Part shown: positions 3,510 through 23,766 of the stretch, piece by piece
Position numbering within the stretch: position 1 is the stretch's first letter
Layout of the letters: every line of letters begins with the position of its first letter
From: a virus
Taxonomy: Duplodnaviria > Heunggongvirae > Uroviricota > Caudoviricetes
Length of the DNA: 23,766 nt
Reading direction: 5' to 3' (one strand)
Virus record (IMG/VR): IMGVR_UViG_2585427763_000009
The notes under the pieces: generated by a model
The model's database searches: none
Told to the model about the DNA's origin: nothing
The model's input: only the letters and a program-made list of their open reading frames with translations
Translations under genes and position numbers: made by a program

Positions 3510-5778
3510 AGCCTCCGGGCGTTTTGTCCCTCCGTCAGCATTTGCCGCAGGCACCGGTAAGACGTTTACCGGTGCTTATGCATGGAACGCGCCACGCGAG
3601 GCCGTCGGGCGCGAAAGACCCCTTACACGTGACGAGATGCGTCAGGTGCAAGGTGTTTTATCCACGATTAACCGCCTGCCTTACTTTTTGCGTTCGCTGT
3701 TTACTTCACGCTATGACTACATCCGGCGCAATAAAAGCCCGGTGCACGGGTTTTATTTCCTCACATCCACTTTTCAGCGTCGTTTATGGCCGCGCATTGA
3801 GCGCGTGAATCAGCGCCATGAAATGAACACCGACGCGTCGTTACTGTTTCTGGCAGAGCGTGACCACTATGCGCGCCTGCCGGGAATGAATGACAAGGAG
3901 CTGAAAAAATTTGCCGCCCGTATCTCATCGCAGCTTTTCATGATGTATGAGGAACTCTGCGATGCCTGGGTGGATGCCCATGGCGAAAAAGAATCGCTGT
4001 TTACGGATGAGGCGCAGGCTCACCTGTATGGTCATGTTGCTGGCGCTGCACGTGCTTTCAATATTTCCCCGCTCTACTGGAAAAAATACCGTAAAGGACA
4101 GATGACCACGAGGCAGGCATATTCTGCCATTGCCCGCCTGTTTAACGATGAGTGGTGGACTCATCAGCTTAAAGGCCAGCGTATGCGCTGGCATGAGGCG
4201 TTACTGATTGCTGTCGGGGAGGTCAATAAAGACCGTTCTCCTTATGCCAGTAAACATGCCATTCGTGATGTGCGTGCACGCCGCCAGGCAAATCTGGAAT
4301 TTCTTAAATCGTGTGACCTTGAAAACAGGGAAACCGGCGAGCGCATCGACCTTATCAGTAAGGTGATGGGCAGTATTTCTAATCCTGAAATTCGCCGGAT
4401 GGAGCTGATGAACACCATTGCCGGTATTGAGCGTTACGCCGCAGCAGAGGGTGATGTGGGGATGTTTATCACGCTGACCGCGCCGTCAAAGTATCACCCG
4501 ACACGTCAGGTCGGAAAAGGCGAAAGTAAAACCGTCCAGCTAAATCACGGCTGGAACGATGAGGCATTTAATCCAAAGGATGCGCAGCGTTATCTCTGCC
4601 ATATCTGGAGCCTGATGCGCACGGCATTCAAGGATAATGATTTACAGGTCTACGGTTTGCGTGTCGTCGAGCCACACCACGACGGAACGCCGCACTGGCA
4701 TATGATGCTTTTTTGTAATCCACGCCAGCGTAACCAGATTATTGAAATCATGCGTCGCTATGCGCTCAAAGAGGATGGCGACGAAAGAGGAGCCGCGCGA
4801 AACCGTTTTCAGGCAAAACACCTTAACCGGGGCGGTGCTGCGGGATATATCGCGAAATACATCTCAAAAAACATCGACGGCTATGCACTGGATGGTCAGC
4901 TCGATAATGATACCGGTAGGCCGCTGAAAGACACAGCTGCGGCTGTTACCGCATGGGCGTCAACGTGGCGCATTCCGCAATTTAAAACGGTTGGTCTGCC
5001 GACAATGGGGGCTTACCGTGAACTACGCAAATTGCCTCGCGGCGTCAGCATTGCTGATGAGTTTGACGAGCGCGTCGAGGCTGCACGCGCCGCTGCAGAC
5101 AGTGGTGATTTTGCGTTGTATATCAGCGCGCAGGGCGGGGCAAATGTCCCGCGCGATTGTCAGACTGTCAGGGTCGCCCGTAGCCCGTCGGATGACGTTA
5201 ACGAGTACGAGGAAGAAGTCGAGAGAGTGGTCGGCATTTACGCGCCGCATCTCGGCGCGCGTCATATTCATATCACCAGAACGACGGACTGGCGCATTGT
5301 TCCGAAAGTGCCGGTCGTTGAGCCTTTGACTTTAAAAAGCGGCATCGCCGCGCCTCGGAGTCCTGTCAATAACTGTGGAAAGCTCACCGGTGGTGATACT
5401 TCGTTACCGGCTCCCACACCTTCTGAGCACGCCGCAGCAGTGCTTAATCTGGTTGATGACGGTGTTATTGAATGGAATGACCAGGAGGTCGTGAGGGCGC
5501 TCAGGGGCGCATTAAAACGAGGTCTGAGAAGACCAAACCGTCAGCAAAGAAACGGAAGCCCGTTAAAACAGCATGAAATGGCACCATCGGCCAGACTGAC
5601 CCGGTCAGAACGAATGCAAATTACCCGTATCCGCGTTGACCTTGCTCAGAACGGTATCAGGCCGCAGCGATGGGAGCTTGAGGCGCTGGCGCGTGGAGCA
5701 ATTGTAAATTACGACGGGAAAAAATTCACGTATCCAGTCGCTGATGAGTGGCGGGGATTCTCAGCAGTAATGGAGTGA
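3499..5778 (+). CDS. A: Rolling-circle replication initiator endonuclease gpA (759 aa from ATG 3499)
   Basis: Long ORF; from the internal ATG at 3499 (MAVKASGRF...) it matches the remembered P2 gpA N-terminus and length (~761 aa); contains HUH-type motif (PHWHMMLF) and the AGYIAKYISK tyrosine motif. Confidence 0.88.
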   Translation: MAVKASGRFVPPSAFAAGTGKTFTGAYAWNAPREAVGRERPLTRDEMRQVQGVLSTINRLPYFLRSLFTSRYDYIRRNKSPVHGFYFLTSTFQRRLWPRIERVNQRHEMNTDASLLFLAERDHYARLPGMNDKELKKFAARISSQLFMMYEELCDAWVDAHGEKESLFTDEAQAHLYGHVAGAARAFNISPLYWKKYRKGQMTTRQAYSAIARLFNDEWWTHQLKGQRMRWHEALLIAVGEVNKDRSPYASKHAIRDVRARRQANLEFLKSCDLENRETGERIDLISKVMGSISNPEIRRMELMNTIAGIERYAAAEGDVGMFITLTAPSKYHPTRQVGKGESKTVQLNHGWNDEAFNPKDAQRYLCHIWSLMRTAFKDNDLQVYGLRVVEPHHDGTPHWHMMLFCNPRQRNQIIEIMRRYALKEDGDERGAARNRFQAKHLNRGGAAGYIAKYISKNIDGYALDGQLDNDTGRPLKDTAAAVTAWASTWRIPQFKTVGLPTMGAYRELRKLPRGVSIADEFDERVEAARAAADSGDFALYISAQGGANVPRDCQTVRVARSPSDDVNEYEEEVERVVGIYAPHLGARHIHITRTTDWRIVPKVPVVEPLTLKSGIAAPRSPVNNCGKLTGGDTSLPAPTPSEHAAAVLNLVDDGVIEWNDQEVVRALRGALKRGLRRPNRQQRNGSPLKQHEMAPSARLTRSERMQITRIRVDLAQNGIRPQRWELEALARGAIVNYDGKKFTYPVADEWRGFSAVME

Positions 5779-6107: not shown

Positions 6108-6482
6108 ATGGGGAAGCAAGGCAAAGGCAAAGGCAACAAAAATCAGGTTAAGGTTACGTGGGCTCAGGCGTGGCGGGATGTAATGATAAGAGCCATGTCT
6201 AATGGTCAGTTGATACCTATTACCATCAGTATTATTTTAATGATTGCTGCATGGAGGTTACCAAAAACAGACTTGTCCAATTTAGCCTTCTCTATTGTTG
6301 ATGGCTTTAAGGAGCATTCCTTGGTTGGTTGGGCTATCTCGGTAATAGTGGGTTTGGCTTGGTCTGCACATGCGCGAATCATGAGGCGCTGTTTTAGTTC
6401 CGAGGCACAGAGAATCGGTAACGAGAAAACAAAGTATCAACAAAGACAGACCACTCAAGCCTTGGGTACAAGTGATAAATAG
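6108..6482 (+). CDS. Small membrane protein, two predicted transmembrane helices (124 aa; true start may be the ATG at 6183)
   Basis: AT-rich ORF; hydrophobic segments LIPITISIILMIAAWRL and LVGWAISVIVGLAWSAHA; first gene after A in the cargo slot; a GGCGGGA Shine-Dalgarno-like run precedes the 6183 ATG. Confidence 0.5.
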   Translation: MGKQGKGKGNKNQVKVTWAQAWRDVMIRAMSNGQLIPITISIILMIAAWRLPKTDLSNLAFSIVDGFKEHSLVGWAISVIVGLAWSAHARIMRRCFSSEAQRIGNEKTKYQQRQTTQALGTSDK

Positions 6483-6502
6483 TTGTTTATTTAGGAGTTA
6501 TT

Positions 6503-7060
6503 ATGCTGACAGTGCTGTTTTATGTGCTGTTGGGTTTAGGCGCAGCACACTTCATTTACGAGCGAATCATTTTGCCGTCCATCCGACTTCATTATAGAAA
6601 CCAATTGTTTGCGCTTCGTGATGTCGCTAGGAGGAAAATCATTGATGGAGGTTCCGATACTTCCATGCAAGCGGCAACACTTGTGCATGACTCATTGAAT
6701 AACGCTATCAATAGATTGCATTTACTCACGTTGCCAAACAAATTTCGTGCTCAAAAGCGTATGGCAGAAAACCATGCAATAAGGCAGAAAATTCGGCGTG
6801 AGATAGATGTTTTCAAACGCTGTGATGATAGAGAAGTTGTTGATGTACTGTTTAAATCCGGTCGGATACTTGAAAATGTACTGTTATTCAATAGCTTAAT
6901 GTTATTGCTTTACATGTTTCCATTTGTCCTTGCTGTATGGTTCTGTGTTAGGGTCATAAAGACAGCAAGTAGTTTAGTACAGTGGGTCAAAGGAAGAGAT
7001 TTAGAGGAAGCTATAATGCTGCTTCCTGATACTCAGGTTGAAAAGGTTGTATACGCATAA
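6503..7060 (+). CDS. Membrane protein with N-terminal and C-terminal hydrophobic helices (185 aa)
   Basis: Starts 20 bp after the previous ORF behind an AGGAG Shine-Dalgarno; hydrophobic N-terminus (LTVLFYVLLGLGAAHFIY) and a C-proximal hydrophobic stretch (LLFNSLMLLLYMFPFVLAVWFCV); followed by a strong terminator. Confidence 0.55.
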   Translation: MLTVLFYVLLGLGAAHFIYERIILPSIRLHYRNQLFALRDVARRKIIDGGSDTSMQAATLVHDSLNNAINRLHLLTLPNKFRAQKRMAENHAIRQKIRREIDVFKRCDDREVVDVLFKSGRILENVLLFNSLMLLLYMFPFVLAVWFCVRVIKTASSLVQWVKGRDLEEAIMLLPDTQVEKVVYA

Positions 7061-7062
7061 AA

Positions 7063-7088
7063 ATCACCCCTTAGGGGGTGATTTTTTT
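7063..7088 (+). terminator. Rho-independent terminator after the two-membrane-protein operon
   Basis: Perfect hairpin ATCACCCC-TTAG-GGGGTGAT followed by TTTTTTT, immediately after the stop at 7060. Confidence 0.65.
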
Positions 7089-7299
7089 ACATGACTTTTG
7101 ATTAGCTGACATTGTAAATCCGCATGTATCAGATGCATTGTTTTGCATGTGGAAATGGGTGTTTTCACTGCCAGCTATCGCTACATGTAGCAAAAACACG
7201 GGCTTAATAAGAAATCATTCTGCCATAAGGCATAACTTCCCCGCGTGCTCAGGTATTGACGTCATAGATATGGATCTTTTTTAATCAAGGTATGGTATT

Positions 7300-8247
7300 A
7301 TGAAGATATTTATTAGTTGGTCAGGTCAGGACAGCCTGGAGATAGCAAAAGTATTACGGGATTGGATACCGAATGTTATTCAAGTAGCTGAGCCGTACGT
7401 ATCAGCGGAAGATATTGATAAAGGCACTCGCTGGGCGACTGATATATCAAAGGAACTTGATGACTCTTCTTATGGGATTATTTGCCTTACAAAAAATAAT
7501 ATTAATGCACCGTGGATAAATTTTGAGGCGGGTGCTTTAGGTAAAAAGGTTGATAAGAGCCGGGTTAGTCCTTTCTTGTTTAAAATTAAACCATCTGAGA
7601 TAACAGGCCCAATATTACAATTCCAGTATACTCGTTCGGATGATAAGAACGATATTTTGAAGTTGATGTTGTCAATAAATAATCAAGCAGGATTTTTGAC
7701 TGAAGAACGCTTAACTAAAGCTTTCGAGCAATGGTGGCCAAGTTTAGAGCGTGAGTTAGATAACATTCAAGATATTAACCCTGTAGATAAAGATTCCACT
7801 AAAAAAACAAAAGGTGATTCGACTTCTGAGATACAAAATCTTTCCAAAATTGTTGAAAGTTTGCTGGATATTAGCCGAACAAATCACCAATTATTGCGTG
7901 ATCCAGCATCATTATTGCCAGAAGAATATGTTAGCAAAATAATAAACAGGGAAGGGCGTAAAGAAACTGTTTTAAAAATTGTAGCTTCTGATTTATTATC
8001 CATGCATCATTCACTAATTCGTGTAAAAAGAAGATTTATTCGTCGTGGTATTGATGAAACATCTAGGAGCGAGTTAATTGAATCATTAAATAAAATGATA
8101 ATGGATTGTTCTAGAGTAATCGCTCACTTAGATAATTATTGTGGGGCTTCATCAAACAATATGTTCAATAGTGCGCTTAGATTGCGGACCAGAAATTTAA
8201 TTGACATGATGGATGAGGAGGATGCAGAACGGGATGAAATGGAATAA
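7300..8247 (+). CDS. TIR-domain protein (N-terminal TIR-like fold ~aa 1-150, C-terminal helical domain of unknown function; 315 aa)
   Basis: N-terminus KIFISWSGQDS (bacterial TIR beta-A strand pattern) and SYGIICLTKNNINAPWINFEAGAL (TIR S-x-W-x-x-x-E pattern, candidate catalytic Glu76 at nt 7525-7527); AT-rich; motif-level recognition only, no search. Confidence 0.6.
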   Translation: MKIFISWSGQDSLEIAKVLRDWIPNVIQVAEPYVSAEDIDKGTRWATDISKELDDSSYGIICLTKNNINAPWINFEAGALGKKVDKSRVSPFLFKIKPSEITGPILQFQYTRSDDKNDILKLMLSINNQAGFLTEERLTKAFEQWWPSLERELDNIQDINPVDKDSTKKTKGDSTSEIQNLSKIVESLLDISRTNHQLLRDPASLLPEEYVSKIINREGRKETVLKIVASDLLSMHHSLIRVKRRFIRRGIDETSRSELIESLNKMIMDCSRVIAHLDNYCGASSNNMFNSALRLRTRNLIDMMDEEDAERDEME

Positions 8248-8791
8248 TCAATTTTGACTAATCATAAATAATTTTGCATATATAAACTTATAATGCCGCA
8301 GCCGCTATTTTTCAGCGGCTGTATATCGCTTATAATGGGTATGTTATTTTTATTTTGATAAAATCATTAAAATTGTCGATGTTATATGAATGCACATGTA
8401 TTATTAATGTTAGAAGATTATGCCTGCTTACGGCTATTGTGCTGAATTCAACTATGAACGCATCAGTATTAAAATCGTTCCATGAAATGTTCTTCGTCTA
8501 CAGCAGATGATGGGCAACGAAAAAATGACGCTGAGTGAGTTGGTCGGGGAGAATTGTTAGAGGTATTTATGGAGTGGTTTAATAATATCGGTCAATCCTG
8601 AGTTGCAGCATCACATAGACGATAGGGAATCTCTCCAGTCGTTCTGGAATGGCAGCGTTGAACAACAAGCACAGCGAGGCGTTAGATGCCCATCAGATTG
8701 ACACAGAGGGTTTATGAATCGCTGGGATTTACTTAGTTTGAAAAATAATATATTTATATGTTTTTGTATTGTGTTTGTTAAGGAGTTTGGA

Positions 8792-8998
8792 TTGAAAAGA
8801 AAACTGATTTGTGTTATGGCTTTTTGGGGGGCGTTGCTGGCTGGTTGTAATGAGAGTAATAAAAAAGAAGTTGAGGGTTGTATTGAAAGAGGTGTCCAAT
8901 ATTTTATAGAGATTGGTTCTTACCCTAAATTAAGTGATGGGCGTGATGCTGTAAAAGTTGCTACTGAACGTTGTAATAGAACAATAACGGCTTTCTGA
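8792..8998 (+). CDS. Small predicted lipoprotein (69 aa from TTG 8792; longer frame opens at ATG 8714)
   Basis: AAGGAG Shine-Dalgarno 6 nt upstream of TTG 8792; N-terminus KRKLICVMAFWGALLAGC is a classic lipoprotein signal with lipobox LAGC; mature part has 3 Cys. The 8714 start would give an atypically long leader. Confidence 0.5.
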   Translation: MKRKLICVMAFWGALLAGCNESNKKEVEGCIERGVQYFIEIGSYPKLSDGRDAVKVATERCNRTITAF

Positions 8999-9000
8999 TA

Positions 9001-9918
9001 ATGGATTATACGAGCTATATAATAGGACAGCTTCAGGTTGAGGATATTATTGATGCAATTAAAGGCGTTAATAATACTAATGTCATAAAAGATTATGTGC
9101 TGCCTGTAGTATTACCAATTATATCTTCTGTGCTGAGTTACTTTATTGCAACTAGGTTGTTTTATCGGCAGGAGGACCTTAAAGCACAAAGAAGAAAGGT
9201 AAGCGTTGTAAATAAATGTATTTATGACTACTTTTCTGCAATGACAACGTTGTTGCAAATTAAAGGGAATTATTATGGTGGGGTAAGTATAAGTGAAAAT
9301 CCTATCGAGAGGGCTTTAGCTTTTCCTGTTGTGGTTTTTTCTGGTGCTCCTCTATCATCAGATTTAAGTGAGTTGGCCTGTATATTGAGTCAAAAGGGAG
9401 TAGGGAATAATAGAGAGCCAGCAAAGACTACTAACTGGGGGGATGCTTTTGCTGTTAGTGATATAGCAAGAAGGTTTAACAGCCTATTGGCTGCATTAAA
9501 TGTTAGGAATGATTTTGATGACACCTATAGAGGAATGATTATTGAATCAACAGGTTCACCTTTGCCTACGATGCGTTTTAAAAATGATGATATTGTTAAT
9601 GCTATAGGTAGTAATAAGGCAGCTTATTACATTGATATTACTGAGCAAATAATGATTATGATAGATGTTTTGTTGCTTGATATTAATCTGTTGCTCAAAG
9701 AGTTGCCATTGTATGCTGAATCGCTGTTTGACAAAAGAGTAATGCAAGAAGATTCAGGGATTCTTAAATTCAATGATTTGCACGAACGTTTTCCTCTACT
9801 TATGAAACCTGTAACGCCACCTTCGATTAAACTCATGTCTGATTATTTGGGGTACAGTGAAGATGAGATCTTACGACGCTATCCATACCCGTTCTTTAAT
9901 ATGCATGATTGTGAATGA
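9001..9918 (+). CDS. Hypothetical membrane-anchored protein (305 aa), translationally coupled to the upstream lipoprotein gene
   Basis: ATG 2 nt after the lipoprotein stop (TGATAATG); one hydrophobic helix (~aa 32-54, VLPVVLPIISSVLSYFIATRLF); AT-rich; no motif I recognise. Confidence 0.55.
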   Translation: MDYTSYIIGQLQVEDIIDAIKGVNNTNVIKDYVLPVVLPIISSVLSYFIATRLFYRQEDLKAQRRKVSVVNKCIYDYFSAMTTLLQIKGNYYGGVSISENPIERALAFPVVVFSGAPLSSDLSELACILSQKGVGNNREPAKTTNWGDAFAVSDIARRFNSLLAALNVRNDFDDTYRGMIIESTGSPLPTMRFKNDDIVNAIGSNKAAYYIDITEQIMIMIDVLLLDINLLLKELPLYAESLFDKRVMQEDSGILKFNDLHERFPLLMKPVTPPSIKLMSDYLGYSEDEILRRYPYPFFNMHDCE

Positions 9919-12042: not shown

Positions 12043-12058
12043 GCATCCGGCGCTGGCC

Positions 12059-12516: not shown

Positions 12517-12942
12517 ATGAAGAAATTATCCCTTTCACTGATGCTGAATGTGCCGCTGGCGCTGATGCTGGCACTGTCCCTGATTTACCCGCAGAGCGTG
12601 GCCGTCAGTTTTGTCGCCGCCTGGGCGATTCTGGCGACGGTTATCTGTGTGGTTGCCGGTGGTGTCGGCGTGTATGCCACTGAGTATGTGCTGGAACGCT
12701 ACGGGCGGGAGCTGCCGCCGGAATCGCTGGCCGTGAAGATTGTCACGTCGCTGTTTTTGCAGCCGGTGCCGTGGCGCAGACGGGCAGTAGCTCTGGTGGT
12801 GATGGTGGCGACGTTTATCTCGCTGGTCGCTGCCGGGTGGATTTTTACCGCGCTGATTTATCTTGTGGCGTCGCTGTTTTTCCGGCTGATACGTAAAGCC
12901 TGCCGTCAGCGTTTTGAGGGGCGGGAACCATGTCAAAGCTGA
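12517..12942 (+). CDS. lysA: Lysis regulatory membrane protein LysA (141 aa)
   Basis: 141-aa multi-pass hydrophobic protein directly after K, GGAG Shine-Dalgarno; same size and position as P2 lysA. Confidence 0.78.
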   Translation: MKKLSLSLMLNVPLALMLALSLIYPQSVAVSFVAAWAILATVICVVAGGVGVYATEYVLERYGRELPPESLAVKIVTSLFLQPVPWRRRAVALVVMVATFISLVAAGWIFTALIYLVASLFFRLIRKACRQRFEGREPCQS

Positions 12943-13355
12943 TGATTGTGCTGGTTGTGCTGTTATCGCTGGCGGTGGCGGGGCTGTTTCTGGTGAAGCA
13001 TGAAAACGCCAGCCTGCGCGCCTCGCTGGACAGGGCGAACAACGTCGCCAGTGAACAGCAGACGACCATCACCATGCTGCAAAATCAGCTTCATGTTGCC
13101 ATCACCAGGGCAGACAAAAACGAGCTGGCGCAGGTGGCACTGCGTCAGGAACTGGAGAACGCCGCGAAGCGTGAAGCACAGCGCGAGAAAACCATCACGA
13201 GGTTACTTAATGAAAACGAAGATTTTCGCCGCTGGTATGGCGCTGACCTGCCTGATGCTGTGCGCCGGTTGCACCAGCGCCCCGCCTGCACCGACGCCAG
13301 TGATTGTCGCCAACGCCTGCCCGAAAGTGAGCCTTTGCCCGATGCCGGGCAGTGA
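12930..13355 (+). CDS. lysB: Inner-membrane spanin LysB (Rz-like, 141 aa)
   Basis: N-terminal membrane anchor then coiled-coil-like sequence; same size and position as P2 lysB; the lysC frame is embedded in it. Confidence 0.78.
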   Translation: MSKLMIVLVVLLSLAVAGLFLVKHENASLRASLDRANNVASEQQTTITMLQNQLHVAITRADKNELAQVALRQELENAAKREAQREKTITRLLNENEDFRRWYGADLPDAVRRLHQRPACTDASDCRQRLPESEPLPDAGQ

Positions 13356-17741: not shown

Positions 17742-19787
17742 ATGAGCATAAAATTCAGAACCGTTATCACCACTGCCGGTGCAGCAAAGCTGGCAGCGGC
17801 AACCGCGCCGGGAGGGCGGAAGGTCAACATTACCACGATGGCCGTCGGGGATGGCGGTGGTAAATTGCCTGTCCCGGATGCCGGACAGACCGGGCTTATC
17901 CATGAAGTCTGGCGACATGCGCTGAACAAAATCAGCCAGGACAAACGAAACAGTAATTATATTATCGCCGAGCTGGTTATTCCGCCGGAGGTGGGCGGTT
18001 TCTGGATGCGTGAGCTTGGCCTGTACGATGATGCGGGAACATTAATTGCCGTGGCGAACATGGCCGAAAGTTATAAGCCAGCTCTTGCCGAAGGCTCAGG
18101 GCGTTCGCAGACCTGTCGCATGGTCATCATCGTCAGCAGTGTGGCCTCAGTGGAGCTGACCATTGACACCACAACGGTGATGGCGACTCAGGATTACGTT
18201 GATGACAAAATTGCAGAGCATGAACAGTCACGACGTCACCAGGACGCCTCGCTGACCGCAAAAGGTTTTACTCAGTTAAGCAATGCGACCAACAGCACGT
18301 CTGAAACACTGGCCGCAACGCCGAAAGCGGTTAAGGCCGCATATGACCTTGCTAACGGGAAATATACCGCACAGGACGCTACCACAGCGCGAAAAGGTCT
18401 TGTCCAGCTAAGTAGTGCGACCAACAGCATATCTGAAACGCTCGCCGCAACACCAAAAGCCGTTAAGACGGTAATGGATGAAACGAACAAGAAAGCGCCA
18501 TTAAACAGCCCTGCACTGACCGGAACGCCAACGACGCCAACTGCGCGACAGGGAACGAATAATACTCAGATCGCAAACACGGCTTTCGTTATGGCCGCGA
18601 TTGCCGCCCTTGTAGACTCGTCGCCTGACGCACTGAATACGCTGAACGAGCTGGCGGCGGCGCTGGGCAATGACCCGAATTTTGCTACCACCATGACTAA
18701 TGCGCTTGCGGGTAAGCAACCGAAAGATGCCACTTTGACGGCGCTGGCGGGGCTTGCTACTGCGGCAGACAGGTTTCCGTATTTTACGGGGAATGATGTT
18801 GCCAGCCTGGCGACCCTGACAAAAGTCGGGCGGGATATTCTGGCTAAATCGACCGTTGCCGCTGTTATCGAATATCTCGGTTTACAGGAAACGGTAAACC
18901 GAGCCGGGAACGCCGTGCAAAAAAATGGCGATACTTTGTCCGGCGGGCTTACTTTTGAAAACGACTCAATCCTTGCCTGGATTCGAAATACTGACTGGGC
19001 GAAGATTGGATTTAAAAATGATGCCGATGGTGACACTGATTCATATATGTGGTTTGAAACAGGTGACAACGGCAATGAATATTTCAAATGGAGAAGTCGC
19101 CAGAGCACCACAACAAAAGACCTGATGAATCTTAAATGGGATGCTCTGTATGTTCTTGTTAAAGCCCTTTTCAGCAGTGAAGTAAAAATATCTACAGTCA
19201 ATGCACTGAGGATATTTAATTCATCTTTTGGGGCTATTTTTCGCCGTTCTGAAGAAAACCTGTATATCATTCCTACACGAGAAAATGAGGGTGAAAATGG
19301 AGATATTGGGCCATTAAGGCCATTCGGCATCAACTTAAGAACAGGAGTTGTGTCTGTTGGTAATGGTGCCAGGATTGATGGCGGGCTGGCACTTGGCACG
19401 AATAACGCGTTGGGTGGGAACTCTATTGTTCTTGGTGATAACGACACCGGATTTAAACAAAATGGCGATGGTAATCTGGATGTTTATGCTAATAACGTCC
19501 ATGTTATGCGCTTTGTTTCCGGAAGCATTCAAAGTAATAAGACCATAAATATTACGGGGCGTGTTAATCCCTCGGATTACGGTAACTTTGATTCCCGCTA
19601 TGTGAGAGATATCAGACTTGGCACACGTGTTGTCCAGACCATGCAGAAAGGGGTGATGTATGAGAAAGCAGGGCACGTAATTACCGGGCTTGGTATTGTC
19701 GGTGAAGTCGATGGTGATGACCCCGCAGTATTCAGGCCAATACAAAAATACATCAATGGCACATGGTATAACGTCGCACAGGTGTAA
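17742..19787 (+). CDS. H: Tail fiber protein gpH (681 aa) with an internal ~25-aa repeat and a lower-GC C-terminal receptor-binding region
   Basis: N-terminus MSIKFRTVITTAGAAKLAAATAPGG matches remembered P2 gpH; tail-fiber repeat copies ...QLSNATNSTSETLAATPKAVKAAYD... and ...QLSSATNSISETLAATPKAVKTVMD... Confidence 0.85.
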   Translation: MSIKFRTVITTAGAAKLAAATAPGGRKVNITTMAVGDGGGKLPVPDAGQTGLIHEVWRHALNKISQDKRNSNYIIAELVIPPEVGGFWMRELGLYDDAGTLIAVANMAESYKPALAEGSGRSQTCRMVIIVSSVASVELTIDTTTVMATQDYVDDKIAEHEQSRRHQDASLTAKGFTQLSNATNSTSETLAATPKAVKAAYDLANGKYTAQDATTARKGLVQLSSATNSISETLAATPKAVKTVMDETNKKAPLNSPALTGTPTTPTARQGTNNTQIANTAFVMAAIAALVDSSPDALNTLNELAAALGNDPNFATTMTNALAGKQPKDATLTALAGLATAADRFPYFTGNDVASLATLTKVGRDILAKSTVAAVIEYLGLQETVNRAGNAVQKNGDTLSGGLTFENDSILAWIRNTDWAKIGFKNDADGDTDSYMWFETGDNGNEYFKWRSRQSTTTKDLMNLKWDALYVLVKALFSSEVKISTVNALRIFNSSFGAIFRRSEENLYIIPTRENEGENGDIGPLRPFGINLRTGVVSVGNGARIDGGLALGTNNALGGNSIVLGDNDTGFKQNGDGNLDVYANNVHVMRFVSGSIQSNKTINITGRVNPSDYGNFDSRYVRDIRLGTRVVQTMQKGVMYEKAGHVITGLGIVGEVDGDDPAVFRPIQKYINGTWYNVAQV

Positions 19788-19790
19788 TTT

Positions 19791-20318
19791 ATGCAGCATT
19801 TAAAAAATATTACTGCGGGTAATCCAAAAACTGTTGCCCAATATCAACTGACAAAAAATTTTGATGTTATCTGGTTATGGTCCGAAGAGGGAAAAAACTG
19901 GTATGAGGAAGTAAGTAATTTTCAGGAAGACACGATAAAGATTGTTTACGACGAGAATAATATAATTGTCGGCATCACCAGAGATGCTTCAACGCTTAAC
20001 CCTGAAGGTTTCAGCGTTGTCGAGGTTCCTGATATTACCTCCAACCGACGTGCTGATGACTCAGGTAAATGGATGTTTAAGGATGGTGCCGTGATTAAGC
20101 GGATTTATACGGCAGATGAACAGGAGCAACAGGCAGAATCACAAAAAGCAGCTTTACTTTCCGAAGCGGAAAGCGTTATTCAGCCACTGGAACGCGCTGT
20201 CAGGCTGAATATGGCGACGGATGAGGAATGCGCACGACTGGAGTCATGGGAACGCTACAGCGTTCTGATCAGCCGTGTGGATCCTGCAAATCCTGAATGG
20301 CCGGAAATGCCGCAATAA
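19791..20318 (+). CDS. G: Tail fiber assembly chaperone gpG (175 aa)
   Basis: 175 aa directly after H; same size and order as P2 gpG. Confidence 0.82.
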
Positions 20319-20539
20319 GTTGTATAAGCTCTGGTGTGAGATTACATATCTATGGCACAGAGTAAAGCCTAATCTGACAGGCCGCTCTGTGTCTGGAGTA
20401 GATTTTAGTAAAGCATTATTTTATTAGTGCAAATTCTAATCAATACATTTTATGTATATGATATCCTACGGACTTTAATGACTTGGTTTAGGCTAACCAG
20501 ATAACACTGAAGGAATATTTTTGATAATTAAGGTGCGGT

Positions 20540-21133
20540 ATGTTTACTAAGCGACGATTAAAAAATATTAACTGGGAGGCAAGTTCAGTGATTCTTGCTA
20601 TGGTTCTCTTTGTTGGAAATATATTTTATACAAATCATCGTGATGATATAAGCATGGAGGCTGAGAGGGACAGTATCAGAACAATGTTTGCATATGAAAT
20701 CGCTAATAACCATCGCGCTCTCACTTTTCTTGATAAAACGAGACATATTGGCTTTGACGAAAATTCGGAGCATTTTGTTGGCGAGCCTTTTGCCATTAAT
20801 GTCAAATCATTAGGGGGACCTCGCTTACAGATTGCATTAAACCAGACTGATAAAGTGTTTAAATCCTACTTCGGCGAATTAAGTAAGCTTGATAAAGAGG
20901 ATGTTACTCTTCTTATGGACTATTACCATGAGCAAAGCATCCTGCTGGAGCGTGTAAAATCTACGTTACAGAAGATGAAAAGTGGTAATGATATTAAAGT
21001 TGATATTGATGGTTGCTTATTAGAAGAACACTTCATGAATGAGCTTAATCTTTCTAATATTTTGCTTAAACGCTATAGCTATTTATTATCACAACACGCT
21101 AAGGAACATAAAACAAAAGATTTACATAATTGA
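20540..21133 (+). CDS. Hypothetical membrane-anchored protein (197 aa) in the Z/fun slot between G and FI
   Basis: AT-rich ORF after a 220-bp AT-rich spacer; single N-terminal hydrophobic helix (SSVILAMVLFVGNIFY) then a soluble domain; no motif I recognise. Confidence 0.55.
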   Translation: MFTKRRLKNINWEASSVILAMVLFVGNIFYTNHRDDISMEAERDSIRTMFAYEIANNHRALTFLDKTRHIGFDENSEHFVGEPFAINVKSLGGPRLQIALNQTDKVFKSYFGELSKLDKEDVTLLMDYYHEQSILLERVKSTLQKMKSGNDIKVDIDGCLLEEHFMNELNLSNILLKRYSYLLSQHAKEHKTKDLHN

Positions 21134-21340
21134 TAATCTGCTAATGGTTATTCATGGGGTAACTATGTTTTATATGTAATCCAGCCCAGATGAATTATTG
21201 ATTCTGGATAATAACCGCAGAGCGGCATATACCCTGACAGGCAAATGTCCGCTTCTTGCTCAAAGCAGACTGTCAGATTTGATAACTTTTGGGCTATGTA
21301 AACTGTCAGTCGGAAAATGAGTGTGTACAAATCAGGACAG

Positions 21341-21365
21341 GCGGGCGAATTGCCCGCATTTTCTT
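21341..21365 (+). terminator. Rho-independent terminator upstream of the FI remnant
   Basis: Hairpin GCGGGC-GAATT-GCCCGC followed by ATTTTCTTT. Confidence 0.5.
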
Positions 21366-21462
21366 TATCTGTTGTTTCATCCACTGACCAGCCAGGTCAA
21401 ATAGCGTCTCATGTACTACCCAACGGAAAATAGTTGCACCCATTAACCACGGAGTTAAACGG

Positions 21463-21576
21463 ATGAGTGACTATCATCACGGCGTGCAGGTGCTGGAGAT
21501 TAACGACGGCACCCGCGTCATTTCCACCGTATCCACAGCCATTGTCGGCATGGTCTGCACGGCTAGCCTCCCGTAA
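21463..21576 (+). pseudogene. FI: Tail sheath gene FI remnant: first ~35 codons only, then a premature stop at the deletion junction
   Basis: Translation [35 protein letters not shown] matches the remembered P2 gpFI N-terminus, then LP-stop. Confidence 0.7.
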
Positions 21577-22327
21577 CAGGCTGGAAGCCAGTGTCGCTCC
21601 GTCACTGGCCGGAATTAAAATCCCGCACATCGACCAGTCGCAGGAGTCCGATGCGAAATTCCTGACCCGTCTTGCTGAACGCAACGGCGGTGAGGTGTCG
21701 GTAAAAATGGGAAAACTGCTGTTTCTCAAAGCGGGGCAGGGGGGGACGGGCAGCGGGAAAAAAATCCCGCAGATTACCATCACCCGCAGCGACGGCGACC
21801 GTCATCATTTTGCGATTGCTGACCGTGGAGCCTACACAGGCGTAACGGCAAAGTGGTTACACACCAAAGACCCGAAGCCGCAAAAGCAGAAGGTAAAACT
21901 GAAACGCAAAAAGAAAGAGAAACACCTGCGCGCACTGGAGCACCCGAAAGCGAAACCGGTCACGCAGAAGAAAGAGCCAAAAGTACCGGAAGCGCGCGAA
22001 GGTGAATACATGGCCGGTGAGGCTGACAACGTTTTTGCCCTGACCACGGTATATGCCACGAAAGCACAGGCCATGCGCGCCGCTCAGGCGAAGTGGGATA
22101 AACTGCAACGGGGTGTTGCGGAGTTCTCCATCAGCCTGGCTACTGGTCGGGCAGATATTTACACGGAAACGCCGGTCAGAGTGTCAGGCTTTAAGCGCGT
22201 CATAGACGAGCAGGACTGGACAATCACTAAGGTGACACATTTTCTGAATAATAGCGGCTTCACGACGTCCCTGGAGCTTGAGGTCAGGCTTTCTGATGTG
22301 GAGTACGAAACAGAAGATGATGAGTGA
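21569..22327 (+). pseudogene. D: 3' portion of tail/late gene D, lacking its 5' region and native start
   Basis: Reading frame out of phase with the FI remnant; translation ...KFLTRLAERNGGEVSVKMGKLLFLKAG...VRLSDVEYETEDDE resembles the C-terminal part of P2 gpD (~387 aa); FII, E, T and U are missing between FI and D. Confidence 0.65.
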
Positions 22328-22408
22328 TGTAATTTATTTATCTGTTTGTTTTATAAGGATAAATTAACTAAAATGGCACCATCAACAAAACCGGAAGAGG
22401 TGCTCGCG

Positions 22409-22627
22409 ATGTTTCATTGTCCTTTATGCCAGCATGCCGCACATGCGCGTACAAGCCGCTATATCACTGACACGACAAAAGAGCGTTATCACCAGTGTCA
22501 GAACGTGAATTGCAGCGCCACGTTCATCACTTATGAGTCGGTACAGCGATACATCGTGAAGCCGGGAGAAGTCCATGCCGTAAGGCCGCACCCGTTGCCG
22601 TCAGGACAGCAAATTATGTGGATGTAA
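22409..22627 (+). CDS. ogr: Late-gene transcriptional activator Ogr (zinc-finger, 72 aa)
   Basis: MFHCPLCQHAAHARTSRYITDTTKERYHQCQNVNCSATF... matches remembered P2 Ogr (CxxC...CxxxxC zinc finger); last phage gene before host DNA. Confidence 0.88.
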   Translation: MFHCPLCQHAAHARTSRYITDTTKERYHQCQNVNCSATFITYESVQRYIVKPGEVHAVRPHPLPSGQQIMWM

Positions 22628-22637
22628 TCACAAAAAT

Positions 22638-22664
22638 AGCCCCTCAGTTGAGGGGCTTTATTTA
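22638..22664 (+). terminator. Rho-independent terminator after ogr
   Basis: Hairpin AGCCCCTC-AGTT-GAGGGGCT followed by a T-rich tract, 10 nt after the ogr stop. Confidence 0.6.
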
Positions 22665-22755
22665 TGGTCGATGTGGACGCTATGTGGACAGCGTTTGATA
22701 TAAATCCATTTATATCATCAGGTTAGGTGCTTTTTTGTGACACCATCCCTGTCTT

Positions 22756-22782
22756 CCCCCACATGATGTGGGGGTTTTTTTT
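22756..22782 (+). terminator. Second hairpin + T-run in the prophage-host junction
   Basis: CCCCCACAT-G-ATGTGGGGG followed by TTTTTTTT; about 80 nt upstream of fieF. Confidence 0.5.
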
Positions 22783-22863
22783 ATCCTCAATTTGCCTGCT
22801 GCTTAATGCATTGCAGATGATTTGCTTCCGTTATACTACCGTCAGTTGATAGCGGGAGTATTT

Positions 22864-23766
22864 ATGAATCAATCTTATGGACGGCTGGTCAGTCGGGCGG
22901 CGATTGCTGCGACGGCGATGGCTTCGCTGCTATTGCTGATTAAAATTTTTGCATGGTGGTATACCGGGTCGGTGAGTATTCTCGCCGCGCTGGTGGATTC
23001 GCTGGTGGATATCGGCGCGTCGTTGACGAATTTACTGGTGGTGCGATATTCCCTGCAACCTGCCGACGATAATCACTCGTTTGGTCACGGTAAAGCTGAG
23101 TCCCTCGCGGCGCTGGCGCAAAGTATGTTTATCTCCGGTTCGGCACTATTCCTGTTTTTGACGGGTATTCAACATCTGGTATCTCCAACACCGATGACAG
23201 ATCCAGGCGTCGGGGTTATCGTGACAATTGTGGCGCTAATTTGTACGATTATCCTTGTCTCGTTTCAGCGTTGGGTGGTGCGCCGGACGCAAAGCCAGGC
23301 GGTGCGGGCTGATATGCTACATTACCAGTCTGATGTTATGATGAACGGCGCAATTCTGCTGGCGCTGGGGTTGTCCTGGTACGGCTGGCATCGCGCCGAT
23401 GCTCTGTTTGCATTGGGGATCGGCATCTATATTTTATATAGCGCGTTACGCATGGGATATGAGGCGGTACAGTCATTACTGGATCGCGCATTGCCTGATG
23501 AGGAACGGCAAGAAATTATTGATATCGTGACTTCCTGGCCGGGTGTTAGCGGCGCTCACGATCTTCGCACGCGGCAGTCAGGGCCGACCCGCTTTATTCA
23601 GATTCATTTGGAAATGGAAGACTCTCTGCCTTTGGTTCAGGCACATATGGTGGCGGATCAGGTAGAGCAGGCTATTTTACGGCGTTTTCCGGGATCGGAT
23701 GTGATTATCCATCAGGACCCCTGTTCCGTCGTACCCAGGGAGGGTAAACGGTCTATGCTTTCATAA
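22864..23766 (+). CDS. fieF: Host cation-diffusion-facilitator ferrous-iron/zinc efflux transporter FieF (YiiP), 300 aa, complete
   Basis: Translation from ATG 22864 ([49 protein letters not shown]...) matches remembered E. coli FieF; the window ends on its stop codon. Confidence 0.85.

What the first reader, a model, noticed from the sequence alone, without database searches (positions are those of the whole stretch)
20319..21133. Unrecognised 197-aa membrane-anchored protein in the Z/fun slot
Seen: after G there is a 220-bp AT-rich spacer and then an AT-rich ORF with one N-terminal transmembrane helix and a ~165-aa soluble domain. Established: in P2 this position holds Z/fun, a lysogenic-conversion gene that blocks phage T5. 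Inference: a functional analogue (phage exclusion) of a different family.
Basis: partly seen in the sequence, partly recalled or inferred. Interest (0 to 1): 0.6.

Follow-up and report, generated by a model that had tools for sequence, protein, structure and literature searches.

The report
Uncharacterised membrane protein in P2 hotspot
A real, well-conserved 197-residue membrane-anchored protein of unknown function fills the variable "Z/fun" slot of a decayed P2-like prophage; its surroundings here and elsewhere suggest an anti-phage role, but no experiment or homology shows one.

Summary
A 221-bp AT-rich spacer follows gene G. An intact 197-codon ORF (20540-21133, GC 0.35) then encodes one N-terminal transmembrane helix and a ~165-residue helical domain.

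The ORF lies in an 847-bp variable cassette (20392-21238) between P2-conserved flanks, where P2 carries fun(Z). It has no detectable homology to Fun(Z), and no match in Pfam, NCBIfam, PADLOC or PDB. Its only match is PHROG 3829, of unknown function. NCBI's label "lysogenic conversion protein" traced to no model or paper.

It is a real gene. dN/dS is about 0.1-0.3. The cassette occurs in 203 of 5426 complete E. coli genomes and in inducible P2-like phages.

The AlphaFold model (pLDDT 85) shows the membrane helix running into a generic four-helix bundle. Charge distribution predicts that the bundle faces the periplasm.

Relatives are solo cargo on P4-like satellites, conjugative elements, plasmids and islands. 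Four sit beside known defence genes: TIR, Lamassu, a type II R-M pair, and AbiC-like plus HD.

Best reading (about 0.4): an envelope-level phage-exclusion factor.

Counter-evidence: two published lysogens carry the gene, and no protection attributable to it was reported against eight phages. T5 was not tested.

This is an ordinary but testable hotspot candidate.

The parts
20319..20391 (.). Left P2-conserved flank after the G stop codon. It includes the left arm of an imperfect inverted repeat (20371-20389).
   Evidence: It is 94-95% identical to P2 and P2-EC58 up to 20391, and similarity stops there. The same place is annotated 'left inverted repeat' in AJ512683.
20392..21238 (+). Variable cargo cassette of the Z/fun hotspot: 847 bp, GC 0.345.
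   Evidence: It is bounded by the P2-conserved flanks. It is present in 203 of 5426 complete E. coli genomes at 95-99% identity, full length in 201.
20434..20462 (+). Candidate sigma-70 promoter (TTCTAA, 17-nt spacer, TATGAT) in a block conserved with a Pantoea homologue. Weak and unverified.
   Evidence: The hexamer scan gives 8 of 12 matches. The surrounding block ...CTAATCAATACATTTTATGTATATGATAT... is conserved in L005, although the proteins are only 68% identical. The scan's best hit (20501-20528) lies too close to the Shine-Dalgarno sequence to serve the ORF.
20540..21133 (+). Gene for the 197-aa bitopic membrane protein. It has a cationic N-tail (residues 1-11), a transmembrane helix (about 12-31), a four-helix bundle (about 32-178) and a C-tail.
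   Evidence: ORF. PHROG 3829 matches full length at E 8e-135. dN/dS is 0.1-0.3. AlphaFold gives pLDDT 84.8.
21239..21462 (.). Right P2-conserved flank. It holds the right inverted-repeat arm (21261-21279), CTGTCAG repeats and the region of the pF activator site upstream of the FI start (21463).
   Evidence: It aligns to P2 17433-17756 and to P2-EC58 and AC1, with 92% mean column identity. The pF features are annotated in P2.
21340..21366 (+). Intrinsic terminator (GGCGGGC-GAATT-GCCCGC plus a T-run). It would end V-operon and cassette transcripts.
   Evidence: Terminator scan. RNA fold: -15.7 kcal/mol, z = -2.6. It is conserved in P2, P2-EC58 and AC1. No terminator is predicted between G and the ORF.

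Best explanation
This is a single-gene accessory ('moron') cassette in the Z/fun hotspot of a P2-like prophage. It encodes a bitopic inner-membrane protein with three parts. A short, positively charged N-tail lies in the cytoplasm. One unusually well-conserved transmembrane helix follows. That helix continues without a break into a four-helix bundle that projects about 50 A into the periplasm.

The most likely role is a prophage-encoded phage-exclusion factor acting at the cell envelope. It would do this by interfering with genome entry across the periplasm and inner membrane, either by binding part of the incoming phage's ejection machinery or by binding a host inner-membrane protein that the phage needs. 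In this it would resemble Sie-type proteins rather than cytoplasmic nucleic-acid-sensing immunity.

Shown: the gene is real, intact, under purifying selection and mobile as a unit; it has the architecture described; it is not homologous to Fun(Z) or to any characterised family; its relatives keep company with defence genes on many kinds of mobile element.

Inferred: the N-in/C-out topology, expression in the lysogen, the anti-phage role, and above all the entry-blocking mechanism.
For: Real gene:
- A 197-codon open frame in 35% GC DNA has P about 1.5e-7.
- dN/dS is 0.12-0.38 among close alleles, apart from one low-divergence pair at 0.66, and about 0.08-0.17 against Pantoea and Salmonella orthologues.
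- The cassette is full length in 201 of the 203 E. coli genomes that carry it.
- The ORF is intact although the host prophage has lost about 10.7 kb of capsid and tail genes.

Cassette nature:
- P2-conserved flanks end at 20391 and resume at 21239.
- The cassette has its own Shine-Dalgarno sequence and an upstream block conserved in a non-P2 Pantoea island.

Architecture:
- All five AlphaFold models score 82-85 pLDDT. Helix 12-66 is continuous, followed by helices 92-100, 105-116, 119-148 and 151-178.

Topology:
- Over 29 family members the N-side carries 98 K/R against 18 D/E. The first 15 residues after the helix carry 83 K/R against 99 D/E.
- Distant members end in a CxxxxC pair, which is compatible with a periplasmic disulfide.

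Membrane-level action:
- The transmembrane helix is the best conserved segment among 12 distant members, 39% against 21-32% elsewhere. This suggests a specific helix-helix contact.

Defence association:
- The slot is a known defence hotspot, holding Fun plus three PD systems (PMC9519451).
- Homologues lie in the post-primase hotspot of two P4-like satellites.
- One lies 38 nt downstream of a TIR protein, PADLOC PDC-S66 and ThsB-like.
- Others lie next to Lamassu LmuA/LmuB, a type II R-M pair, and an AbiC-like protein with an HD protein.
- Base rate: 6 of 8 randomly chosen unknown loci from P4 hotspots protected against phages (PMC13586616).
Against: - No homology or specific fold similarity to any known exclusion or defence protein was found: PADLOC, PHROGs annotated families, HK97 gp15, PDB and BFVD.
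- Indirect negative data come from PMC9122126. E. coli C lysogens of P2_AC1 and P2_SIDE7 carry this gene. Only AC1 is reported to protect, against lambda and LF82_P8, and that phenotype was reproduced by its TIR-TM system alone.
- In P2 hotspots, machine-learning predictors flag only 15-32% of unknown proteins as antiviral (PMC13586616).
- Topology rests on the positive-inside rule alone. The helix is only moderately hydrophobic (Kyte-Doolittle 1.5-1.8).
- A TIR neighbour would fit a cytoplasmic signal receiver better than a periplasmic domain.
- The promoter is weak by consensus.
- The family also sits on plasmids and conjugative elements with no defence neighbour.
Confidence: 0.4

Rival explanations
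1. It is an abortive-infection-type membrane effector or signal receiver. The helical domain would be cytoplasmic, or the protein would oligomerise through its conserved transmembrane helix. On infection it would permeabilise or depolarise the membrane. It might respond to a signal from another system, for example the TIR system in the same prophage or the TIR neighbour seen in L017.
For: - One distant homologue lies directly downstream of a TIR protein on the same strand, with a 38-nt gap.
- The window prophage itself carries a 2TM/1TM/TIR system at 6108-8247.
- Transmembrane effectors are common in TIR and CBASS-type defence (PMC9122126).
- The transmembrane helix is the most conserved segment, as expected for an oligomerising pore former.
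Against: - Charge distribution strongly predicts N-in/C-out, so only about 11 residues would face the cytoplasm.
- There is a single transmembrane helix, and no similarity to the 1TM or 2TM partners of the TIR system.
- The gene is solo in nearly every context and occurs with many different hotspot cargoes.
- The TIR neighbour is itself a PADLOC single-gene candidate, and the pairing was seen only once.
Confidence: 0.2
2. It is a lysogenic-conversion factor unrelated to phages. As an envelope protein it would change host physiology or competitiveness. Possibilities include protection from colicins, tailocins or T6SS effectors acting in the periplasm, entry exclusion of conjugative DNA, or stress or colonisation fitness.
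For: - The family occurs inside a conjugative transfer region and next to plasmid partition and resolvase genes.
- One homologue lies near antirestriction and RadC genes, and another near a polymorphic-toxin fragment.
- P2 hotspots also carry non-defence cargo such as CDT toxin and partition systems (PMC9122126).
- The lysogens that carry the gene showed no reported protection attributable to it (PMC9122126).
- Periplasm-facing, membrane-anchored proteins are typical immunity or exclusion proteins.
Against: - No similarity to any known immunity, exclusion or virulence family was found in Pfam, NCBIfam or PDB.
- No cognate toxin gene travels with it.
- Four of about ten independent non-P2 contexts are adjacent to anti-phage systems.
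Confidence: 0.2
3. It serves the phage's own cycle. It could be a spanin-like or holin-regulating lysis protein, or a factor linked to the adjacent tail-fibre genes H and G.
For: - It has the i-spanin-like architecture of an N-terminal transmembrane helix plus a periplasmic helical domain.
- It lies directly after H and G, with no predicted terminator in between, so it should be co-transcribed late.
Against: - It is absent from most P2-like phages, including P2 itself.
- It is present on plasmids, conjugative elements and satellites that have no tail or lysis genes.
- It occurs with H alleles of 657 to 764 aa.
- It has no o-spanin partner.
- It shows no similarity to the prophage's own LysB (hhalign probability 0.06).
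- The model is a compact bundle, not an extended coiled coil.
Confidence: 0.05
4. It is known biology: a diverged Fun(Z), or a member of an already characterised defence family.
For: - It occupies the same slot as fun(Z).
- NCBI calls it 'lysogenic conversion protein'.
Against: - BLASTP E 2.2 and hhalign probability 0.07 against Fun(Z).
- No PADLOC, Pfam or NCBIfam hit at E <= 10.
- An exhaustive HMMER search finds only 29 cluster representatives, all short proteins of the same architecture apart from two weak multi-stretch hits.
- No paper mentions the PHROG, FIG or WP identifiers.
Confidence: 0.02

Closest known systems
P2 Fun(Z), NP_046777, the T5-blocking lysogenic-conversion gene
   Same: It occupies the same hotspot between G and FI, bounded by the same conserved flanks. 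Like this gene, it is non-essential AT-rich cargo.
   Different: Fun(Z) is 528 aa on the opposite strand. It shows no sequence or profile similarity. This protein is a 197-aa bitopic membrane protein.
Prophage superinfection-exclusion membrane proteins (HK97 gp15, P22 SieA, T4 Imm/Sp, lactococcal Sie2009)
   Same: These are small single-gene morons, often placed among tail genes. They are anchored in the inner membrane and act on genome entry. That is the mechanism proposed here. The class comparison rests on my own knowledge and on PMC10883804.
   Different: There is no homology: HK97 gp15 gives hhalign probability 0.4 over 10 transmembrane residues, and no Sie-annotated PHROG matches. This protein is larger and has a folded four-helix bundle. 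No exclusion phenotype has been shown.
PHROG 3829 / NCBI 'lysogenic conversion protein' cluster
   Same: The window protein is a full-length member (E 8e-135). Its exact sequence is in public databases.
   Different: Nothing differs. This is the protein's own family, and the family has no known function.
Four-helix-bundle periplasmic sensor domains of chemoreceptors and histidine kinases (Tar/Tsr, PcaY, PilJ; 4HB_MCP)
P2-EC58 ORF1 (CAD54907), another Z-region cargo described by Nilsson et al.
   Same: It sits in the same slot between the same inverted-repeat flanks. It also begins with a transmembrane helix followed by a helical region.
   Different: It is 232 aa on the opposite strand, and hhalign probability is 0.09. 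At most it is an analogous architecture.

Membership tests
P2 Fun(Z) | Sequence or profile homology to NP_046777 | tested here: not met
   BLASTP best E 2.2. hhalign probability 0.07.
P2 Fun(Z) | Blocks T5 growth and confers FUdR sensitivity | not testable with these tools
   This needs plaque assays. T5 was not in the published panel used on lysogens that carry this gene (PMC9122126).
Known or candidate defence systems (PADLOC-DB v2.0.0) | HMM match to any component model | tested here: not met
   0 families at E <= 10. In the same prophage, 6108-8247 matched 2TM-TIR, 1TM-TIR and TIR-TM strongly, so the search itself works.
PHROG 3829 (unknown function) | Full-length HMM match | tested here: met
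   E 8e-135, residues 1-197 against profile positions 1-197 of 197.
Superinfection-exclusion (Sie-type) inner-membrane proteins | Homology to a characterised Sie protein | tested here: not met
   HK97 gp15: hhalign probability 0.4. No annotated PHROG besides 3829 matches. T4 Imm/Sp and P22 SieA were tested only indirectly, through PHROGs and Pfam.
Superinfection-exclusion (Sie-type) inner-membrane proteins | Inner-membrane location with a periplasm-exposed part | tested here: inconclusive
   There is one hydrophobic helix. N-side charge is 98 K/R against 18 D/E; the C-side is 83 against 99. This is a prediction only.
Superinfection-exclusion (Sie-type) inner-membrane proteins | Expressed from the prophage; blocks DNA entry without blocking adsorption | not testable with these tools
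   Only a weak promoter-like site was found. The lysogen data in PMC9122126 show no phenotype attributable to the gene.
i-spanin (Rz / P2 LysB) | Located in the lysis cassette with an o-spanin partner; homology to Rz or LysB | tested here: not met
   The gene lies outside the lysis cassette (lysB is at 12930-13355). No embedded or adjacent lipoprotein ORF is present. hhalign against the window's LysB gives probability 0.06.
4HB_MCP / TarH chemoreceptor ligand-binding domain | Pfam match; second transmembrane helix and cytoplasmic signalling domain | tested here: not met
TIR-plus-transmembrane-effector systems (Thoeris-like; 2TM-1TM-TIR) | Adjacent TIR gene in the same cassette; homology to the transmembrane partners | tested here: not met
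   The cassette holds one gene. hhalign against the prophage's 1TM and 2TM proteins gives probabilities 0.06 and 0.6. A TIR neighbour was seen only for the distant homologue P0045.

The most novel reading that the evidence does not exclude
The family would be a new kind of envelope-level immunity module, shared by phages, satellites, conjugative elements and plasmids. Its periplasm-facing four-helix bundle would detect or obstruct the genome-injection machinery of incoming phages. Its unusually conserved transmembrane helix would either block an inner-membrane entry route or carry the signal inwards. In some lineages the signal would reach a neighbouring cytoplasmic TIR effector. That would amount to an outside-in sensor for phage entry.
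Probability: 0.1. Interest if true: 0.75.

Novelty: new member of a known kind. Interest (0 to 1): 0.38.

Why it matters
The P2 Z/fun slot is a proven source of anti-phage genes. This cargo is one of its commoner occupants, found in about 3.7% of complete E. coli genomes, yet it has no assigned function and no model in the defence databases tested.

If it does exclude phages, it would add a small single-gene system that acts at the envelope. It would also give a periplasm-facing protein whose target could reveal how some phage genomes cross the inner membrane.

If it does not, it is a useful reminder that hotspot position alone does not make a defence gene. Cloning it is trivial, since the cassette is 847 bp.

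Tried and rejected
- **Family searches.** Pfam, NCBIfam and PADLOC scans found nothing. A PDB sequence-profile search gave only noise, E >= 0.13.
- **Metal-site idea.** I considered a di-metal or hemerythrin-like site because of the E53/H58, H130-E131 and E162/H164 motifs. I rejected it because H58, E131 and E162 are not conserved in distant members. Only R47, N57 and L117 are invariant.
- **Direct homology tests, all negative.** Fun(Z), P2-EC58 ORF1, HK97 gp15, the prophage's 1TM/2TM TIR partners and LysB.
- **RNA and repeats.** An Rfam scan of 20250-21500 found nothing. The long inverted repeat around the cassette reduces to an imperfect 19-nt arm pair plus short CTGACAG motifs.
- **Genome-wide locus search.** The wide alignment failed for lack of a conserved block. 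The narrow alignment found only 2 loci among species-representative genomes.
- **Literature.** No paper mentions the PHROG, FIG or WP identifiers. Nilsson et al. 2004 and Brenes & Laub 2025 are not held.
- **Promoter.** The best promoter hit from the scan (20501-20528) was rejected because its -10 element abuts the Shine-Dalgarno sequence.

Full report
**1. What is in the sequence**

The window is a P2-like (Peduovirus) prophage lying next to fieF. Tail-fibre gene H runs 17742-19787 and G runs 19791-20318. The next ORF is 20540-21133 (+, ATG, 197 aa).

The 221-bp spacer has GC 0.348. The ORF has GC 0.350 and GC3 0.32. Baseplate gene J has GC 0.574 and GC3 0.62. AAGGTG lies 4 nt upstream of the ATG.

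In DNA of this composition a 197-codon open frame has probability about 1.5e-7. The other five frames are open for at most 76 codons. The only adjustment is that 20319 is the start of the spacer, not of the gene.

**2. Limits of the unit**

BLAST against P2 (NC_001895) and against the P2-EC58 Z-region (AJ512683) shows P2-conserved sequence up to 20391 and again from 21239. The replaceable cassette is therefore 20392-21238, 847 bp.

The flanks carry an imperfect 19-nt inverted repeat (20371-20389 and 21261-21279) and several CTGACAG/CTGTCAG motifs. These coincide with the 'left/right inverted repeat' features deposited for P2-EC58.

The right flank contains an intrinsic terminator at 21340-21366 that is conserved in all the P2-likes compared. 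No terminator is predicted between G and the ORF. Late V-operon transcripts should therefore read through the gene.

A possible promoter of its own (TTCTAA-17-TATGAT, 20434-20462) lies in a block that is also conserved upstream of a Pantoea homologue only 68% identical in protein. Expression in the lysogen is plausible but not shown.

**3. It is a real, selected gene**

- Pairwise dN/dS is 0.12-0.38 among E. coli and phage alleles, apart from one low-divergence pair at 0.66 (dS 0.036). It is about 0.08-0.17 against Pantoea and Salmonella orthologues.
- The cassette is found in 203 of 5426 complete E. coli genomes at 95-99% identity, full length in 201.
- It is found in 13 phage records, including the inducible isolates P2_AC1 and P2_SIDE7.
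- The exact protein is already in public databases.
- The host prophage is badly decayed. It lacks the equivalents of P2 1729-7043 (P N-terminus to K) and 17757-23190 (FI to D) (Pfam on the fragments). The ORF is nevertheless intact.

**4. What the protein looks like**

There is one hydrophobic segment, residues about 12-31.

A first AlphaFold run with close homologues was mediocre: pLDDT 74, with one good model out of five. Adding distant relatives from the exhaustive HMMER search gave five concordant models at pLDDT 82-85.

In that model a single helix spans residues 12-66. The membrane helix therefore continues directly into helix 1 of a bundle. A loop follows at 67-91, then helices 92-100, 105-116, 119-148 and 151-178.

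*Topology.* Over 29 family members the segment before the helix carries 98 K/R against 18 D/E. The 15 residues after it carry 83 K/R against 99 D/E. By the positive-inside rule the N-tail is cytoplasmic and the bundle periplasmic. No signal-peptidase or lipobox motif follows the helix (from the sequence). Distant members end in CxxxxC, which is compatible with a periplasmic disulfide. This is an inference, not a measurement.

*Conservation.* Across the wide alignment only R47, N57 and L117 are invariant. A51, E53, I54 and Y129 are nearly so. The histidines and glutamates that looked like a metal site in the close family are not conserved, so I dropped that idea.

The transmembrane helix itself is the best conserved segment among the 12 distant members, 39% identity against 21-32% elsewhere. 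That is unusual for a mere anchor and suggests a specific helix-helix contact in the membrane.

**5. Family and homology**

- Pfam, NCBIfam and PADLOC give no hit, even at E <= 10.
- PHROGs gives one full-length hit, phrog_3829, of unknown function.
- The word-indexed search found 38 proteins, all in Enterobacterales (Escherichia, Salmonella, Pantoea, Kosakonia, Pluralibacter, Enterobacter). Many are named 'lysogenic conversion protein' by NCBI.
- That name matches no NCBIfam model. I found no paper behind it. It appears to be positional.
- The exhaustive HMMER profile search of 1.84 billion representatives found only 29 at E <= 0.001. The family is small.
- There is no similarity to Fun(Z), P2-EC58 ORF1, HK97 gp15, the 1TM/2TM partners of the TIR system in the same prophage, or LysB.

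**6. Where relatives live**

In E. coli the gene sits in the G-FI slot with H alleles of 657 to 764 aa, so it is not tied to one receptor-binding protein. Elsewhere it occurs in these contexts:

| Locus / homologue | Context |
|---|---|
| Pantoea ananatis (L006) and Kosakonia (L024) | Directly after the primase of P4-like satellites |
| P0045 (L017) | 38 nt downstream of a TIR protein beside an integrase; the TIR protein is a full-length PADLOC PDC-S66 and ThsB-like match |
| L020 | Divergent from Lamassu LmuA/LmuB on a ParA-bearing contig |
| Salmonella (L007) | Followed by a type II methylase/restriction pair in a decayed prophage at the same fieF-pfkA site |
| Proteus mirabilis (L025) | Next to an AbiC-like protein (PF16872) and an HD protein |
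| L021 | Inside a conjugative transfer region |
| L022 | Next to resolvases and ParB |
| L009 | Near antirestriction and RadC genes |
| L005 | In an AlpA island |

The gene is thus a solo cargo gene that moves between the accessory slots of phages, satellites, conjugative elements and plasmids. About four of roughly ten independent non-P2 contexts sit beside recognised defence genes, and two more are in satellite hotspots.

**7. Literature**

- The Z/fun slot is an acknowledged second defence hotspot of P2-likes. It holds Fun plus three PD systems (PMC9519451; also 10.1101/2024.10.15.618418 and PMC13586616).
- In P4 hotspots, 6 of 8 randomly chosen unknown loci protected against phages. For P2, machine-learning tools flag only 15-32% of unknown proteins (PMC13586616).
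- Rousset et al. (PMC9122126) lysogenised E. coli C with four P2-like isolates. They challenged the lysogens with lambda, T4, P1, 186, CLB_P2, LF82_P8, AL505_P2 and T7. Only AC1 is reported to protect, against lambda and LF82_P8, and its cloned 2TM-1TM-TIR system reproduced that.
- I find that both AC1 and SIDE7 carry this 197-aa gene, at 94% and 97.5% identity. The window prophage also carries the same TIR system at 6108-8247.
- In its native context, therefore, the gene gave no reported protection of its own against those eight phages. The paper does not show data for the other lysogens, and T5 was not tested. This is weak negative evidence, not a refutation.

**8. Interpretation**

The best-supported account is a single-gene hotspot moron that encodes a bitopic inner-membrane protein with a periplasm-facing helical bundle. 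It most likely acts in conflict between mobile elements at the envelope.

I favour interference with phage genome entry (Sie-like), at confidence about 0.4. Three reasons support this:
- the bulk of the protein is predicted to lie outside the cytoplasm;
- the membrane helix looks like a specific interaction surface;
- the gene works alone in very different elements.

The rivals are:
- an abortive-infection-type membrane effector, possibly signal-dependent (0.2);
- a non-phage envelope function such as immunity to periplasm-acting toxins or exclusion of conjugative DNA (0.2);
- a role in the phage's own cycle (0.05);
- hidden membership of a known family (0.02).

**9. Novelty and score**

The kind of thing is well known: accessory cargo in a P2 defence hotspot, a candidate exclusion gene. 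The family is catalogued but uncharacterised, and it is unrelated to any studied exclusion or defence protein. I file it as a new member of a known kind.

Interest is about 0.38. It is a cheap, well-defined candidate found in about 3.7% of complete E. coli genomes. It is one of many such unknowns, and it comes with some indirect negative data.

The most novel reading not excluded is an outside-in sensor or blocker of phage entry that in some lineages couples to a TIR effector. I give that a probability of about 0.1 and an interest of 0.75 if true.

Noticed in passing
window 6108-8247 (+): Three genes in the A-Q (old/tin) hotspot match PADLOC 2TM-TIR, 1TM-TIR and TIR-TM at E 2e-58 to 2e-118. 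This is the system validated from phage P2_AC1 by Rousset et al. 2022, so this prophage closely resembles AC1 in both hotspots.
   Followed up: partly
window 8714-8998 and 9001-9918 (+): Two further ORFs (94 and 305 aa) in the same A-Q hotspot have no Pfam or PADLOC hit. They are additional uncharacterised hotspot cargo.
   Followed up: no
window ~12052-12055 and ~21564-21567: The prophage is defective. Compared with P2 it lacks P2 1729-7043 (terminase N-terminus, O, N, M, L, X, Y and the start of K) and P2 17757-23190 (FI codon ~35 to D codon ~133). The 286-aa ORF at 21467-22327 is a D fragment entered from a frame other than FI's.
   Followed up: yes
window 20371-20389, 21218-21243, 21261-21279, 21303-21309: The conserved flanks of the cassette carry an imperfect 19-nt inverted repeat and repeated CTGACAG/CTGTCAG and CAGAGCGGC motifs. 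They lie at the places annotated 'left/right inverted repeat' in AJ512683. They may be recombination anchors for cargo swapping. Part of the right-hand motif block also follows the homologue in a non-P2 Pantoea island (L005).
   Followed up: partly
window 19166-19581 (H C-terminus) and G: The C-terminal part of tail fibre H, and G, diverge from P2. There is no match or only 81-87% identity, and GC drops to 0.44. This is consistent with swapping of the receptor-binding module next to the hotspot.
   Followed up: no
L017 4090-5657: A distant homologue (P0045, 28% identity) lies 38 nt downstream of a coiled-coil-TIR protein, beside an integrase. The TIR protein is a full-length match to the PADLOC single-gene candidate PDC-S66. 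They may form an unrecognised two-gene system.
   Followed up: partly
L007/L008 (Salmonella enterica), gene at 4001-4594: A 62%-identical homologue sits in a decayed prophage at the same chromosomal site as the window prophage, next to fieF-pfkA. It lies between an HTH protein and a type II methylase/restriction pair.
   Followed up: partly
L003 315-1013 (-) (P2-EC58 Z-region ORF1): Another cargo of the same slot, 232 aa on the opposite strand, also begins with a transmembrane helix followed by a helical region. It has no detectable homology (hhalign probability 0.09). This may be a recurring architecture among Z-slot cargoes.
   Followed up: partly
window 20540-21133, residues 11-31 of the protein: The transmembrane helix (NWEAxSVIxAMxLFxxNI) is the most conserved segment among distant family members, 39% identity against 21-32% elsewhere. 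This is unusual for a simple membrane anchor.
   Followed up: yes
cluster of the window protein (P0069, P0071): A few E. coli genomes carry 99-aa truncated versions of the protein, on 34 and 6 contigs. Some alleles are therefore pseudogenised, even though 201 of 203 complete-genome copies of the cassette are full length.
   Followed up: no
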